Source of the DNA: Octopus sinensis | Taxonomy: Eukaryota | Length of the DNA: 64,000 nt | NCBI RefSeq assembly: GCF_006345805.1 | Contig: NC_043002.1 | Location: forward strand, 34,100,001 to 34,164,000 | Reading direction: 5' to 3' | In this document: positions 14,974-46,806 of the stretch, piece after piece | Numbering within the stretch: position 1 is the stretch's first letter | Layout: each line of letters starts with the position of its first letter | Notes under the pieces: generated by a model | Databases searched by the model: none | What the model saw: only the letters and a program-made list of their open reading frames with translations | What the model was told of the DNA's origin: nothing | Translations under genes and position numbers: made by a program

Positions 14974-15287
14974 ATAAATATTATTAGAGACAAAACCACT
15001 ATTTTGCAAAACAAACAAGGAAAGACTAATCAATACATAAAATTTTAATAAATAGTCAAAAAAAACCGCCACTACAATGTCTTGTCTTGATCGACAATTT
15101 CAGGTGGACTTCCAATAAGTCAATAATTTGAAACTGACTTATTGAAGTCCACCTGAAGATTGTCGATCAAGACAAGAAACAATTGTAGTGGCGGGTTTTT
15201 TTGACTATTTATTAAAATTTTATGTATTGATTAAGTCTTCCTTGTTTGTTTTGCAAAGTAGTGGTTTTGTCTCTAATAATATTTTAT
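14974..15287. mobile_element. About 310-bp palindromic element in (TA)n carrying a hammerhead motif (Penelope-like inverted terminal repeat)
   Basis: About 150-bp arms around an approximately 10-nt loop near 15128. A related single arm (attagagataaaaccact...) lies at about 18875-19010. Confidence 0.75.
15149..15191 (+). ncRNA. Minimal type-I hammerhead ribozyme
   Basis: ccac-CTGAAGA-ttgtc(gatcaa)gacaa-GAAAC-aatt-GTA-gtgg: intact core, 5-bp stem II, palindromic stem III (acaattgt), 4-bp stem I. Confidence 0.8.
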
Positions 15288-15936
15288 TATATATATATAT
15301 ATATATAATATATATATATATAATATAATATATATATATATACACCCATAACAGAGAGTTGCATGATAGGTCGAAACGATCTACGTACTGAATAAAGACT
15401 AGTGCTAAATCTATCTTCCGTTCCCTTCATCAATTATTATCTCAACTAGCAGTATGGAATTCTTGACGTAGATCCAGAGAATATAATTCCAACTGTGGAT
15501 GACACCAAGAAGGCCAGGTATGAATGTGCTTTACCCAACACACTAATATCGATATATACTCATTGGTCAAAACATTACACACACACACAACTATATATTA
15601 TATATAATATATTATATATATATATTATATAATATATATTATTATATATATATATATATATATATATTTCCTAACTTATGGACTCTGAGACGACTTACAC
15701 ACACACAAACACGCACGCACGTACGTACACAGACACACATAGACACACACACATTTGTAAATTGTAAGAGATTTGCTCCAAATGTTTATCAATTTACTCT
15801 CAGTTAGGTATTCAAAATAGGTTAGTCAACAGTTAATATGTAAATCCAGGCAACTTCGTAATAATCCTTATTATTGTTGATATATATATATATATATAGT
15901 GTGTGTGTGTGTGTGTGTGTGTGTGTGTGTGTGTGT

Positions 15937-16128
15937 AGGGAGAATTCACAAAAAAGCAAAAGACACGAAGACAGGTGGAGTAGACAGCAAACAGATGTAT
16001 TAGTTTAACGCTCGGGAATTGAAGAAGTTTTTAACGTTTCGAGCCTACGCTCTTTCACAGAAAGAAACACAGAAAGAAACAAGGAGAGAAAATAAAGAAT
16101 GTGTAATGGATAGCAATCTATCATGGCG
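15937..16128 (-). mobile_element. About 190-bp non-coding element family A with hammerhead-like motif (16029-16064), between (TG)n tracts
   Basis: Reverse complement matches 32960-33152 and 43250-43405; motif cttt-CTGTGAA-agagcgtaggctc-GAAAC-GTT-aaaa. Confidence 0.7.
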
Positions 16129-16654
16129 TTTGTGTGTGTGTGTGTGTGTGTGTGTGTGTGTGTGTGTGTGTGTGTGTGTGTGTGTGTGGTGTGTGTGTGC
16201 ATAGACAGATATACCTTTCATTTTCAATTTTTCCTTTTTTCACTCTTTGGATAACTGGCACACCAAGAATTTATGGGGACGTACACAAACCATCATCGGT
16301 TGACAAGCAGTGGTGAGTAACAATCACAAACATATGCACACTCACACACACACACACACACATATATATATATATATATATATATACATACAAATATATA
16401 TATACACACATATATATATATGTGTGTGTGTGTGTGTGTGCGTACACATAAATGACAAGGTGATACGAAATCATGTAATGAACGTAATTTCTTGTTCCTT
16501 TGTCGTTTATATAATCTCTTAGTACGCTCTGTACGCGACTAACGTCTTCTATGCAAACATAAAAATTGAGTTCTAACACCAAGTTATTAGTATCGCTATG
16601 CCTACATACATACATACATACATACATACATACATACATACATACATACATACA

Positions 16655-17208
16655 TGGTGGCTGCCTCCTCGTTATCGAGTATGGCCATTGCACGAAGCTT
16701 AATCAATGTTGCTATCATGTGATGCCTGTGCAAGAAGATTTTTTTTAAAGTGATGAAAGGCTGTGTACTGAGTCAACCCCACTCACTAAGCAACAGCAGC
16801 CATAATCCGAAAAGAAGAACAAGTCAACATCATCGGTAACCACTGAGTTGCAGGTTTTATATTGGAGTTATCCCAGTTACCTGAGTTATCTTCTCCTAGA
16901 AGGATGCCCTAACAAAGGCTAGGAGTCCTTCACTCCCAATGGTTTAACCGTTCGATCGGGTATTCAGTCCGATTATTTCTATGTCCCCGCGCATGATACA
17001 GCCTTAAGACATTTATTGGATGGCCGTTGACTCTCAAGTGTTCATCCGCTCTTTGACGGGTTTTGTTTTTCATCCCGCAGGGTGTCCAATAAACACCCTC
17101 CTCGCCTAGCAAGCTTGGTGGGGTTGCCGGTTTAGTTACCGACGACCCGACTATACAACAGGTTGTACTGGGTTACATGTTACCAGTAGCACTCGAAAGT
17201 GACCTGAC
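16655..17208 (-). mobile_element. Non-autonomous bipartite RTE-derived element in (TACA)n
   Basis: 3' end aagcttcgtgcaatggccatactcgataacgag is shared with the RTE 3' end at 62627-62660. The interior resembles RTE 5' regions. No ORF; the same microsatellite flanks both sides. Confidence 0.6.
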
Positions 17209-17489
17209 ATACATACATACATACATACATACATACATACATACACATACATACATACATACATACATACATACATACACACATATAACGGCTTTCTTCT
17301 AGTTCCTGGCTATCAAATCTACTCACTAGGCTTTTGTTGGCCCAGGACTTGATCAAGATGCTACGCAGTGGTGAACTCAGAACTGTGTGTCGGAATCAAA
17401 CTTCTTACAATGCAGCCAAACCCATATATACATACAGTTGATATATATATATATATATATATAGATATATATATATATATTATATAGTA

Positions 17490-43628: not shown

Positions 43629-43706
43629 ATCGTTAATTTAAATTAAATAACGATCTTATCAAATGGCCAGTATGGAAATAAAAACCTTCAAAGGTAATAA
43701 TTATTA

Positions 43707-43991
43707 TTAAAATTATAACTTAGGGTATCTACGAGATACCGCCATGCTGAAAATAGCAGCCAGGATCTGACTCTAAAACTATATTAAGTGTTCATATAGC
43801 ACAAGGAGAGAAGACAAAAAGACAAAATAAAACTAGTAAAAATTAGTAAAATTATTTTTTACTAGTTTTATTTTATCTTTTTGTCCTCTCTCCTTGTGCT
43901 ATATGAACACTAAATGTGGTTTTAGAGTCAGATCTTGGCTGCTATTTTCAGCATGGCGGTATCTCGTAGATACCCTGAGTTATAATTTTAA
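43707..43991. repeat. About 285-bp palindrome (inverted copy of a Penelope-like repeat end)
   Basis: agggtatctacgagataccgccatgctgaaaatagcagcc...actagtaaaaa mirrored; arm homologous to 17495-17615. Confidence 0.9.
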
Positions 43992-45312
43992 ATACATACA
44001 TACATACATACATACATACATACACACACACACACACTCACACACACACACACACACACACACACACACTATATATATATATATATATATATATAGCTAA
44101 AGACACGACGTCCTATTCACGTGACCACATCATCATCAGGTAACAAAGTGAGAGACACTGTGACTTTTAGTGCAAAGTTTCTTTTCTATCTTCTTTCTTT
44201 TATTTGTAGTCCCTGATCCGTACACTTGACTTAATCGCAAAGTAAATAAAGATCATCTACGTTAGTGTCATGTATTTTCTCTTCGTTTTTTTTACAAATC
44301 CTTTCTTTCTTTACAAGATCATTCAGCTCAGCTAACCTATATCATCATGATTAAATCACTATCATATCATTGGATATCATATCACACCTTATGCCCCGCT
44401 TCACTTCCAAACGCACAATCATTTACTGCGTAATCCGTAATAAATAAACCGTACGGCTCATTTCTTTCTTTCTTTCTTTCTTTTTCTTTCTTTCTTTCTT
44501 TCTTTTTCTTTCTTTCTTTCTTTCTTTCTTTCTTTCTTTCTTTCTTCATTATCGAATGCTACCACTATCACCAAAACCACCACCACCATCACCACCATCG
44601 CCACCACCACTACCACCTCTGCCACCACCACCGCGCCCCCACCACGGCCATGCATTCACCACTACCACCACCACCCTCACCACCCTCACCACCAAACTAC
44701 CACCACTGTCACCACCACCACCATCACTGTCATCACCACCACCACACCACCACCTTCACTGCCATCACCGTCACCACCACAACCACCACAACCACCACCA
44801 ACACCATCACTGCCACCACCACCACCACCCTCACCACCAAACTACCACCACCCTCACCACCACTACCATTACTGCCACCAGCACCACTACAACCATTATC
44901 ACCAGCAGCAGCAGCAGCAACCCCCACCACAGTCACCACTACAAAATGTAGTAGCACTATTGTCTCACCATCTCTACCACCCACCACTCCCTGCCCTTTC
45001 TTACTCTTTTTCTAATATCAACTTCTGTCTTCTTCGGTGACATTTAATGTGCGAGTCTGTGTTTGTCTGTGTGTCTGTGTTTATGTCTGCGCGCTAAGCT
45101 TGTTTGTGCGCGCTTACGTGTGAGTGTGTGTGTGTGTGTGTGTCTGGTGCATAATTTATTCCCTTTCATACGTTGACACCTAAAGCGAATTATGTTCATG
45201 AAAAGATATAAATACAATATAGCTATGATATTCAAGTATGTACTTGTGCACACGCGGGCGCGCACACTCACACACTAAGACTGGATTATGTATATATAAA
45301 AACGATAAACGT

Positions 45313-45605
45313 CGCCCTTTTTAAGCCTAGCCAGGCTCATGGGCCCGGTTTCCCGGTTTCTGTGGCGTATGTGTTCTCTCCAGCTGGGCGGGAAGCAAGT
45401 CCATCGCAGCGTTACTCAAGAAACAGGAAGAGAGAGTGAGAGAAAGTTGTGGCGAAAGAGTACAACAGGGGTCGCCCCCCCCCCTACCGGACCTTCGTGG
45501 AGCTTTTAGGTGTTTTCGCTCAATAAACACACACAACCGCCGGTCTGGAATCGAAACCGCGATCCTCCGACCGCGAGTCCGCTGCCCTAACCATTTGCGC
45601 CTCCA
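45313..45605 (-). mobile_element. SINE family 3 (MetaSINE-like), near full length
   Basis: tRNA head tggttagggcagcggactcg...ggtttcgattcc; ctgcgatggact...cagaaaccgggaaaccgggcccatgagcc. Confidence 0.8.
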
Positions 45606-46755
45606 TGTATACATGTATCTATATATATTTATGTATAAATATTATATATTATATATATATTATATATATATAATATATATATATTAATATATATATATAG
45701 TATATATATATATATATATATATAATATATATATATATAATATATATAATATATATATATATATATATATATAATATAATATATATATATATATATATAT
45801 ATATATATCTAATGTAGGATAAAATTTTTTTCGAAAAAATAAATTTTTATCAATGGAGAGCATATTAAAAAATACTTTAAAGGTTAATTTATAAACAGCT
45901 TATAAATAAGGGCATCACAATTTTTTCGTTTGCCCTTATTATATGTTGTGTGTATACATAATATATATATATATTTATTATATATATATATATATATATA
46001 TATATATATATATATATATATATATATATTATATATATATATATATATATATATATATATATATATATATATATATATATAGAAGAATGATTTTTATATA
46101 TAATGAACGTGAAATACAGGAAGGGACGAACACGGAACACAGACAAATCATTCGAAGCCTTCAATCTTCAGTCAGACACCGAATCATCATAGCAAAATTA
46201 TATATATTTTATATAAATATATACATCTATATATACATATATATACATGTGTATATATTGATATATACGTGGATGTGTATGTATGTATACATGTATATAT
46301 AGGAGACCCCGTTCGGTCATGAATGACCATGGGGCTGCATTGCACCTAGAAAGTTAACCTCCGAAGGACAAATCCGGGCAAGATTGTTTATGGAAGGCCA
46401 GCAGTCGCCCATGTATACCAGCCTATATTTTCGGGCGGTAAAAGAGACTTTACAAATACAGTTAGCAAGGGGAACCGTAAAAATATGCAAAACTTTCCTA
46501 ATGTTCATTTTGTAACGTGTAGCGCTGTTTCTATCCAATTTCTAAAGAGAGGGCTTTTATTTATTTATTTATTTATTTATTTATTTTTGTTGTTGTTGTT
46601 AGAAACCCGCAATCTTTTTCTAGAAAGATTTCTAATACGTAACAGAAAGTAAAGACATACCGAACTTTCGTGTCATTCTGAAAATCCAGGAGATACAATG
46701 GTAGAGAGAACACCAAAGAAATGAAGTGGTAGAGCAGATGTTTATTTCATTCGTT

Positions 46756-46806
46756 TACAGCTGTTTCATAATCTTGTTAGTTATATGACAGATATTACAT
46801 CAAGAT
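46756..46806 (-). ncRNA. Degenerate hammerhead-like motif
   Basis: Minus strand atcTTGATGT-aatatct...agattat-GAAAC-agct-GTA with palindromic stem III acagctgt; followed by aataaa. Confidence 0.4.

What the first reader, a model, noticed from the sequence alone, without database searches (positions are those of the whole stretch)
15149..46806. Dispersed set of short microsatellite-embedded elements carrying minimal hammerhead ribozymes
Seen: about 8 motifs of the form stemI-CUGANGA-(A)-stemII-GAAAC-(palindromic mini stem III)-NUH-stemI' at 15149(+), 16029(-), 17638(-), 32093(-), 33025(+), 37224(+), 43280(+), 43524(-), plus a weaker one at 46756(-). Stem sequences differ between families but pairing is kept (ccac/gtgg, cttt/aaag, gttt/aaac, gacac/gtgtt). 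Most sit in 150-300 bp non-coding units bounded by (TA)n/(TG)n. Established: minimal hammerheads with palindromic stem III mark Penelope-like terminal repeats and cleave best as dimers. Inference: these are several non-autonomous, retrozyme-like families mobilised into microsatellites. No RT or GIY-YIG ORF is visible here.
Basis: partly seen in the sequence, partly recalled or inferred. Interest (0 to 1): 0.75.

Follow-up and report, generated by a model that had tools for sequence, protein, structure and literature searches.

The report
Ribozyme-bearing ends of Penelope retrotransposons
These are real hammerhead-ribozyme folds, mostly the short ends of four abundant protein-coding Penelope-type jumping genes, likely copied from the elements' own RNA; one family carries a tRNA-derived head that likely acts as an RNA polymerase III promoter, and another has spread to thousands of copies with a changed core letter predicted to weaken self-cutting.

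Summary
Eight of nine motifs are hammerhead folds; 46756 lacks the core. They belong to five genome-wide families, and the "non-autonomous retrozyme" reading fits only one. Longer copies of families A (16029, 33025, 43280), B (32093, 43524), C (15149) and D (37224) run into RT plus GIY-YIG ORFs with Neptune, Neptune, Hydra and Penelope/Poseidon motifs. Only E (17638) looks like a tandem non-coding retrozyme. Minimal hammerheads in Penelope ends are known. Three features go further. (1) Short copies stop at a fixed 5' point; C copies lacking a 1.5-1.9 kb GT-AG intron never reach more than 25 nt upstream of it, so short units likely come from the RNA's 5' end. (2) D's end repeat starts with a tRNA-derived A/B-box head, and its ORF avoids T4 runs, which suggests Pol III transcription. 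(3) Family A has U instead of core A6 in about 99% of copies. Cleavage and transcription start sites are untested. The scan had already noted the tRNA head, the spliced Hydra copies and the retrozyme on other DNA of this genome; I found them here first and tested them.

The parts
14869..15292 (.). Family C (Hydra-type PLE) head-to-head pair; right arm 15123-15292 (+), left arm 14869-15122 (-) with a damaged hammerhead
   Evidence: 21 of 30 C loci have an inverted piece
15140..15141 (+). Exon-exon junction: the 1.5-1.9 kb GT-AG intron of long C copies is absent here; acceptor about 10 nt before stem I
15149..15191 (+). Family C minimal type I hammerhead, canonical core, palindromic stem III ACAAUUGU, GUA site; no defect
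   Evidence: core canonical in 51 of 52 matched copies
15937..16128 (-). Family A (Neptune-type) short copy; motif 16029-16064 with U6 plus G8A and a weak stem I (decayed)
17491..17718 (-). Family E retrozyme-like unit, truncated; motif 17638-17693, canonical core, bulged long stem II, extra A before GAAA, AUC site
   Evidence: core canonical in 21 of 25
31994..32200 (-). Diverged family B-like copy (71% to B); motif 32093-32127 with U4C core, GUC site, one mismatch in stem I
32960..33150 (+). Family A short copy from the 5' boundary to the fixed 3' end; motif 33025-33060, core CUGUCGA (A6U)
37159..37352 (+). Family D (Penelope/Poseidon-type) copy truncated in the internal (AAC/AAT)n, tRNA-derived head lost; motif 37224-37269 lies in the first codons of the element's ORF
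43254..43405 (+). Family A short copy; motif 43280-43315, core CUGUAGA (A6U)
43423..43626 (-). Family B (Neptune-type) short copy, tail to tail with the A copy across (TA)n; motif 43524-43558, canonical core, one stem II mismatch, GUU site
43638..43991 (.). Inverted pair of family E 3' pieces without the hammerhead
46672..46816 (-). Family F repeat with a GAAAC-AGCU-GUA half motif but no 5' core; not a hammerhead by consensus

Best explanation
The motifs are minimal type I hammerhead folds in the terminal repeats (pLTRs) of four protein-coding Penelope-like retrotransposon families (two Neptune-type, one Hydra-type, one Penelope/Poseidon-type) plus one tandem non-coding retrozyme-like family, and the 150-300 bp units are likely short cDNAs made by the elements' own reverse transcriptase. 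Shown: fixed 3' ends 80-150 nt after the ribozyme; longer copies continue into RT and GIY-YIG; short copies pile up at one 5' position; inverted fold-back duplicates in C and D; spliced and unspliced C copies. Inferred, by analogy with the in vitro work on Anolis PAc: the GIY-YIG domain nicks (TA)n (A, B, C) or AT-rich DNA (D); RT starts inside the RNA just downstream of the hammerhead; priming in the 3' pLTR gives long or randomly truncated copies, while priming in the 5' pLTR runs only to the RNA's start and gives the short unit (an initiator-like CATTC or CACTT in A, B, C; tRNA position +1 in D). D is likely transcribed by Pol III. Cleavage is predicted to be weak, dimer- or protein-dependent in B-E, and very weak or absent in A (A6U), where the fold is likely kept as a structural signal.
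For: A: L003 and L005 carry RT, a CxxxxCxxC linker and GIY-YIG upstream. B: 29 of 30 loci fetched by an upstream piece have the B body downstream; L285+L229 hold a near-complete ORF ending about 1.9 kb before the motif (Pfam GIY-YIG E=5e-4, below cut-off). C: L327 is hammerhead-ORF-3'UTR-intron-hammerhead with DKT and CxCX5C motifs. D: of 30 RT-bearing loci, 19 have the head and 18 the body downstream on the same strand (Pfam RVT_1 E=1.5e-7); in L186 the body opens the ORF. 5' boundary among copies met incidentally: B 11 of 18 start at 0..+8 and 0 of 18 further upstream; A 5 of 19 at -4..+7 and 1 further; D 5 of 14 at -9..+8 and 1 further. C: 25 spliced, 14 unspliced, 3 other of 42; all 25 spliced reach at most 25 nt into exon 1, while 23 of 25 copies with long exon 1 keep the donor and none is spliced. 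Inverted pieces: C 21 of 30, D 22 of 30. Stems differ between families yet pair, with a C-G to G-C swap in stem I between sister families A and B. PMC4209133 and PMC11167929 (first two text parts of each read) describe these motifs and internal priming.
Against: No cleavage, start-site or expression evidence was obtained. Clades are assigned by motifs, not by a tree with reference PLEs; Pfam hit only 2 of 6 ORF pieces. No A or B copy with a 5' pLTR in front of the ORF was found (L285 starts at the ORF), so the start-site reading for A and B rests on the 5' pile-up alone, and A's pile-up is weak (13 of 19 start further inside). A and B rarely show inversions (0 of 30, 1 of 30). Monomer folding energies are mostly unremarkable: 7 of 9 have z above -1. 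All ORFs seen are broken. E was searched only 1.5 kb around 25 loci for an ORF.
Confidence: 0.85

Rival explanations
1. One reading: all units are independent non-autonomous retrozymes that self-cleave, circularise and are inserted into microsatellites by PLE enzymes in trans.
For: Short units vastly outnumber long ones; E occurs in head-to-tail repeats 569-595 nt apart with no PLE ORF in 25 loci; occasional tandem A, B and D units. bioRxiv 2026.07.22.740005 (parts 1 and 3 of 5 read) derives retrozymes from pLTRs.
Against: A-D units are colinear with ends of ORF-bearing elements; their ends lie away from the cleavage site rather than at it; most are solo or inverted, not tandem.
Confidence: 0.1
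2. Family D's short unit has become a self-propagating SINE: solo copies with intact A/B boxes are themselves transcribed by Pol III and recopied by the PLE protein. This adds to, rather than replaces, the best explanation.
For: 27 of 30 head hits continue into the hammerhead body; A box at +8 in 23 of 26 and B box at +53 in 24 of 26; the unit holds its own promoter boxes and the region where RT appears to start.
Against: No test separates solo-unit masters from short products of full-length masters; the strict B box survives in only 8 of 26.
Confidence: 0.4
3. The tRNA-like head in D is a passively captured SINE fragment in the 3' UTR; the element is a Pol II transcript and the 5' pile-up is an RT stall at a hairpin.
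For: ARAGORN (0 of 30 loci) and Rfam do not call the head a tRNA; a Pol III RNA would lack a cap for translation.
Against: Copies start at the tRNA +1 base itself; the ORF's sense strand has 3 T4+ runs in 16,960 nt of 16 copies against 34.8 expected, none shared, while A, B and C ORFs have the expected number.
Confidence: 0.3
4. Chance motifs in AT-rich repetitive DNA.
For: Only 1 of 9 passes a strict descriptor.
Against: 5 versus 0 in 30 shuffles, 13 versus 0-1 in random genome samples; family-wide conservation.
Confidence: 0.01

Closest known systems
[quoted passage not shown]
   Same: Type I, short stem I, extra base after A9, G10.1-C11.1 in A, B, D, E, palindromic 15.2/16.2, mostly solo or opposite-strand pairs; intron acceptor next to helix I as in D. 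virilis Penelope
   Different: That text names U3-A8 as core covariation; a family-wide A6U was not in the parts read (supplement not seen). The C intron is 1.5-1.9 kb versus 75 bp.
Neptune-clade PLEs (Craig et al. 2021, PMC8557442; passages read)
   Same: Families A and B: DKG (seen in B), CX2-5CxxC linker before a C-terminal GIY-YIG, (TA)n targets
   Different: A6U fixed in A; U4C in a common B subfamily; long CA-rich 3' UTR
Hydra-clade PLEs (PMC8557442; passages read)
   Same: Family C: DKT, CxCX5C linker, CxxC and CxH near the endonuclease end, canonical hammerhead, (TA)n targets
   Different: KWK in place of RWK; about 3.5 kb non-coding 3' region with a long intron; many spliced short retrocopies
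Poseidon PAc of Anolis (Frangieh et al. 2024, PMC11167929; parts 1-2 of 4 read)
   Same: Family D: no linker finger, hammerhead overlapping the ORF start, two 3' end positions about 30 nt apart, no (TA)n targeting
   Different: tRNA-derived A/B-box head and (AAT)n in the pLTR; ORF depleted of T4 runs
Non-LTR retrozymes (PMC7229834, passages read; bioRxiv 2026.07.22.740005, parts 1 and 3 read)
   Same: Family E: non-coding head-to-tail monomers with a type I hammerhead
   Different: Monomer about 570-600 nt with an internal microsatellite, longer than the 170-400 nt reported; long bulged stem II; circles untested
Helenus/Cassandra small-RNA-derived LTR elements (PMC10886601; passages read) and tRNA SINEs
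   Same: tRNA-derived A/B boxes inside a terminal repeat
   Different: Those are non-autonomous; D is the terminal repeat of a protein-coding Penelope-type element and carries a hammerhead

Membership tests
PLE minimal hammerhead | Core CUGANGA...GAAA...UH | tested here: inconclusive
   Met in C 51 of 52, D 48 of 60, E 21 of 25, B 37 of 53; not met in A 0 of 44 (U6 in 43) or F 0 of 20. Counts cover copies whose stem II matched the search pattern.
PLE minimal hammerhead | Paired stems I and II, palindromic stem III | tested here: met
   cofolding gives an intermolecular stem III duplex for C and D, not A
PLE minimal hammerhead | Self-cleavage | not testable with these tools
   needs a bench assay
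EN+ Penelope-like element | RT with C-terminal GIY-YIG upstream of the terminal repeat | tested here: met
   A, B, C, D; not found for E (25 loci)
EN+ Penelope-like element | pLTR-ORF-pLTR partial tandem | tested here: inconclusive
   C: L327; D: 5' pLTR opening the ORF in L186 and 3' pLTRs in other loci; not seen for A or B
EN+ Penelope-like element | Inverted truncated duplicates | tested here: met
   C 21 of 30, D 22 of 30, E 5 of 25; rare in A 0 of 30 and B 1 of 30
EN+ Penelope-like element | RT phylogeny with reference PLEs | not tested
   no reference PLE proteins were fetched
Neptune (A, B) | CX2-5CxxC linker before GIY-YIG; (TA)n target | tested here: met
Hydra (C) | DKT, RWK, CxCX5C | tested here: met
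   DKT and CxCX5C exact; RWK reads KWK (frameshifted copy)
Penelope/Poseidon (D) | DKG, no linker finger, hammerhead at ORF start | tested here: met
tRNA-derived SINE (D unit) | tRNA-derived head with A and B boxes, start at +1 | tested here: met
   boxes at +8 and +53; aligns end to end with the genome's tRNAs, best tRNA-Arg(TCT) z=8.3 among 27; not called by ARAGORN or Rfam at default
tRNA-derived SINE (D unit) | Non-autonomous, separate from a coding element | tested here: not met
   the same unit is the terminal repeat of an ORF-bearing element
tRNA-derived SINE (D unit) | Pol III transcription | not testable with these tools
   indirect only: T4-run depletion
Non-LTR retrozyme (E) | Non-coding tandem monomers with type I hammerhead | tested here: met
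   head-to-tail junctions in 4 of 9 loci viewed; spacing 569 and 595 nt
Non-LTR retrozyme (E) | Circular RNA from double cleavage | not tested
   no reads were laid on E
Non-LTR retrozyme (A-D) | Tandem monomers independent of an ORF | tested here: not met

The most novel reading that the evidence does not exclude
Family D is a protein-coding retrotransposon transcribed end to end by RNA polymerase III from a captured tRNA promoter in its terminal repeat, which thereby spawns its own hammerhead-bearing SINE; and sister Neptune family A reached about ten thousand or more copies with a catalytically crippled hammerhead, a natural demonstration that PLEs keep this fold as a structural signal rather than as a ribozyme.
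Probability: 0.4. Interest if true: 0.75.

Novelty: new variant of a known kind. Interest (0 to 1): 0.5.

Why it matters
The role of hammerheads and of retained introns in Penelope-like elements is stated as unclear in PMC8557442. This genome offers natural experiments: a family that expanded with an altered core (A6U), spliced and unspliced retrocopies that mark the transcription start and the priming site, and a coding element with a tRNA-type promoter that would show how a SINE can arise from a Penelope terminal repeat. As a locus, the window is ordinary: such motifs occur about every 40 kb.

Tried and rejected
Rfam scan of the window: the 150 listed of 400 matches were microsatellite-driven and none was a hammerhead family; the other 250 were not seen. 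ARAGORN and Rfam did not call the D head a tRNA; relaxed ARAGORN gave 5 calls in 30 heads against 0.4 in shuffles, mostly misregistered. Sequencing runs: no RNA holder listed. Three raw RNA runs under another organism label than the best DNA holder gave 5,589-8,095 reads on D, unstranded, with no pile-up of starts or ends; uninformative on Pol III or cleavage, since read-through of many genomic copies gives the same picture. Two of them gave 0 reads on C: no test. Other CUGANGA sites checked (29506, 38716, 38884, 39955, 42150, 44139, 47674, 49517, 59261) showed no hammerhead continuation. A distinct A6-intact subfamily of A was sought and rejected: 30 of 143 such copies examined are spread over several subfamilies. 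A 5' pLTR ahead of a Neptune ORF was not found in fetched loci. Paper searches for a tRNA-headed or Pol III PLE and for spliced solo pLTRs listed nothing on point; Repbase, Dfam, subscription papers, the Terminon paper (not held) and supplements were not seen.
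Full report
Setting. The window is G000:C6:34100001-34164000 of a 2.72 Gb microsatellite-rich animal genome. The nine sites fall into six repeat families, named A to F here.

Observation. A minimal-hammerhead descriptor allowing one defect finds 5 motifs in the window and none in 30 local dinucleotide shuffles; in 56 random 10 kb stretches (559,700 bases) it finds 13, against 0, 1 and 0 in three shuffles. 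So the motifs are real and common genome-wide; the window is about three times richer (P=0.018). Only four have the canonical CUGANGA core. The site at 46756 belongs to a repeat family (245 first-look candidates) that keeps a GAAAC palindrome and UA, but 0 of 20 copies has the 5' core; it is not a hammerhead.

Family A (16029, 33025, 43280). Thirty copies share one 3' end followed by TA-type repeats (24 of 27 scored) and differ at the 5' end. L003 and L005 continue upstream into RT, a CxxxxCxxC linker and GIY-YIG, the Neptune layout of PMC8557442 (passages read). Random sampling gives 9 pieces in 560 kb, roughly 44,000 per genome. The core has U at position 6 in 43 of 44 matched copies and A in none. 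Genome-wide, the exact motif with A6 occurs 143 times, against an estimated 14,600 with U6 (3 hits in the random sample; 95% range 3,000-42,600). The 30 A6 copies examined are spread over several subfamilies and mostly share their subfamily's position-7 base and 3' end, as expected of independent substitutions. PMC3088659 (section 8 read) reports low activity for an A6C variant and says earlier mutagenesis found low activity for changes at this position. Predicted folds pair U6 with the ACG of stem III. Weak or absent cleavage is therefore inferred, not shown.

Family B (43524; 32093 is a 71% relative). Copies have a fixed 3' end before TA-type repeats (28 of 30). An upstream piece recovers the body in 29 of 30 loci, and L285 with L229 gives a broken but near-complete Neptune-type ORF ending about 1.9 kb before the motif. 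A and B proteins are 52-72% identical over the best pieces; their hammerheads share stem II and differ by a C-G to G-C swap in stem I. The core is canonical in 37 of 53, but 6 of 7 copies met incidentally carry U4C.

Family C (15149). Young (95-99% between top copies), core canonical in 51 of 52. L327 has hammerhead, ORF (DKT, CxCX5C, C-terminal GIY-YIG: Hydra motifs), long 3' UTR, intron, hammerhead. Long copies hold a GT-AG intron of 1,804, 1,873, 1,830 and 1,496 nt ending about 10 nt before stem I. The window copy lacks it exactly. Of 42 junctions, 25 are spliced, 14 unspliced, 3 other; no spliced copy reaches more than 25 nt into exon 1, whereas 23 of 25 copies with long exon 1 keep the donor and none is spliced. 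The limit falls on an initiator-like CACTT (consensus recalled). This shows passage through spliced RNA and likely marks the transcription start in the 5' pLTR.

Family D (37224). The full short unit is a 75-nt head, (AAT)n and a 175-nt body. 27 of 30 head hits continue into the body. Among the 26 of 30 heads that could be cut out, the A box starts at base 8 in 23 and a B box at base 53 in 24 (strict form in 8); the head aligns end to end with the genome's own tRNAs (best tRNA-Arg(TCT), z=8.3; only 27 tRNAs of six isotypes were compared, so the isotype is open). ARAGORN and Rfam do not call it at default. The head lies about 30-35 nt after the stop codon of a Poseidon-type ORF: 19 of 30 RT-bearing loci have it downstream. 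In L186 the body opens the ORF, so the hammerhead lies in the first codons (the lead came from note e1-10346720), as in PAc (PMC11167929). Fold-back inversions occur in 22 of 30; 0 of 17 3' ends meet TA-type repeats. The ORF's sense strand has 3 T4+ runs in 16 copies (16,960 nt; 34.8 expected; none shared). Copies are not independent; single copies give P=0.013-0.16, while A, B and C ORFs show the expected numbers. This fits Pol III read-through but does not prove it.

Family E (17638; 3' pieces at 43638-43991). Core canonical in 21 of 25, with an extra A before GAAA. The (TA)n before the motif is internal; head-to-tail junctions were seen in 4 of 9 loci viewed, 569 and 595 nt apart in two; no PLE ORF in 25 loci. 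It fits a non-LTR retrozyme; circles were not tested.

Mechanism. PAc primes reverse transcription inside its RNA downstream of the hammerhead, needs protein for cleavage, and inserts normally with a dead ribozyme in vitro (PMC11167929, parts 1-2 read). That explains the fixed 3' ends. The new regularity here is the 5' pile-up: among incidental copies, B 11 of 18 start within 8 nt of the A in CATTC and none further up; A 5 of 19 and D 5 of 14 start at the matching point with one each further up. With the spliced C copies, this suggests that short units are cDNAs from the priming site in the 5' pLTR to the RNA's start. For A and B no 5' pLTR ahead of an ORF was seen, so this step is weaker there.

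Against. No RNA evidence was gained. Clades rest on motifs only. All ORFs seen are broken. Copy numbers rest on few hits.

Novelty. Minimal hammerheads in PLE ends, solo and inverted copies, (TA)n targeting and pLTR-derived retrozymes are published. I found no paper on a tRNA-headed PLE, spliced solo pLTRs or a family-wide A6U; Repbase, Dfam and supplements were not seen and may hold them. The scan's earlier notes (unreviewed) describe the D head, spliced C copies and an E-like retrozyme elsewhere in this genome; none of the 16 listed named the A6U family. Verdict: real, mostly a known kind, with variants that make open questions on PLE replication testable. Interest 0.5.

Noticed in passing
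window 41591-41707 (+) and 46084-46199 (-): Two copies (94% alike) of a repeat ending in (TA)n with CUGAAGA followed 11 nt later by GAA but no GAAA or clear stem III; relatives in L241, L142, L128. Possibly a half-core PLE end.
   Followed up: partly
   Followed up: no
window 43254-43991: Families A, B and E sit side by side across short (TA)n tracts; A-B neighbours also in L016, L029, L030, suggesting repeated use of the same targets.
   Followed up: partly
window 52501-52980 (-), 54689-55493 (-), 56680-57620 (+), 50836-51462 (+), 4563-5165 (+): Broken LINE-type RT pieces and two DNA-transposase pieces (names recalled from motifs, not scanned).
   Followed up: no
window 3950-4330: 124-bp inverted repeat arms, 98% alike, around a (TACA)n tract; MITE-like.
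   Followed up: no
L147 9397-9630: A family C hammerhead joined at the acceptor position to a different upstream sequence ending in AAAG, in an inverted pair; another exon or a template switch.
   Followed up: no
L258 7311, L294 2127, L265 6241, L292 9038, L141 about 6445: Further hammerhead motifs of other families, some with longer stem III.
   Followed up: no
runs X21, X22: Family D is abundant in these runs while family C gave no reads, consistent with C being young or absent in that organism.
   Followed up: no
window 7187-7286: Assembly gap of 100 N.
   Followed up: no
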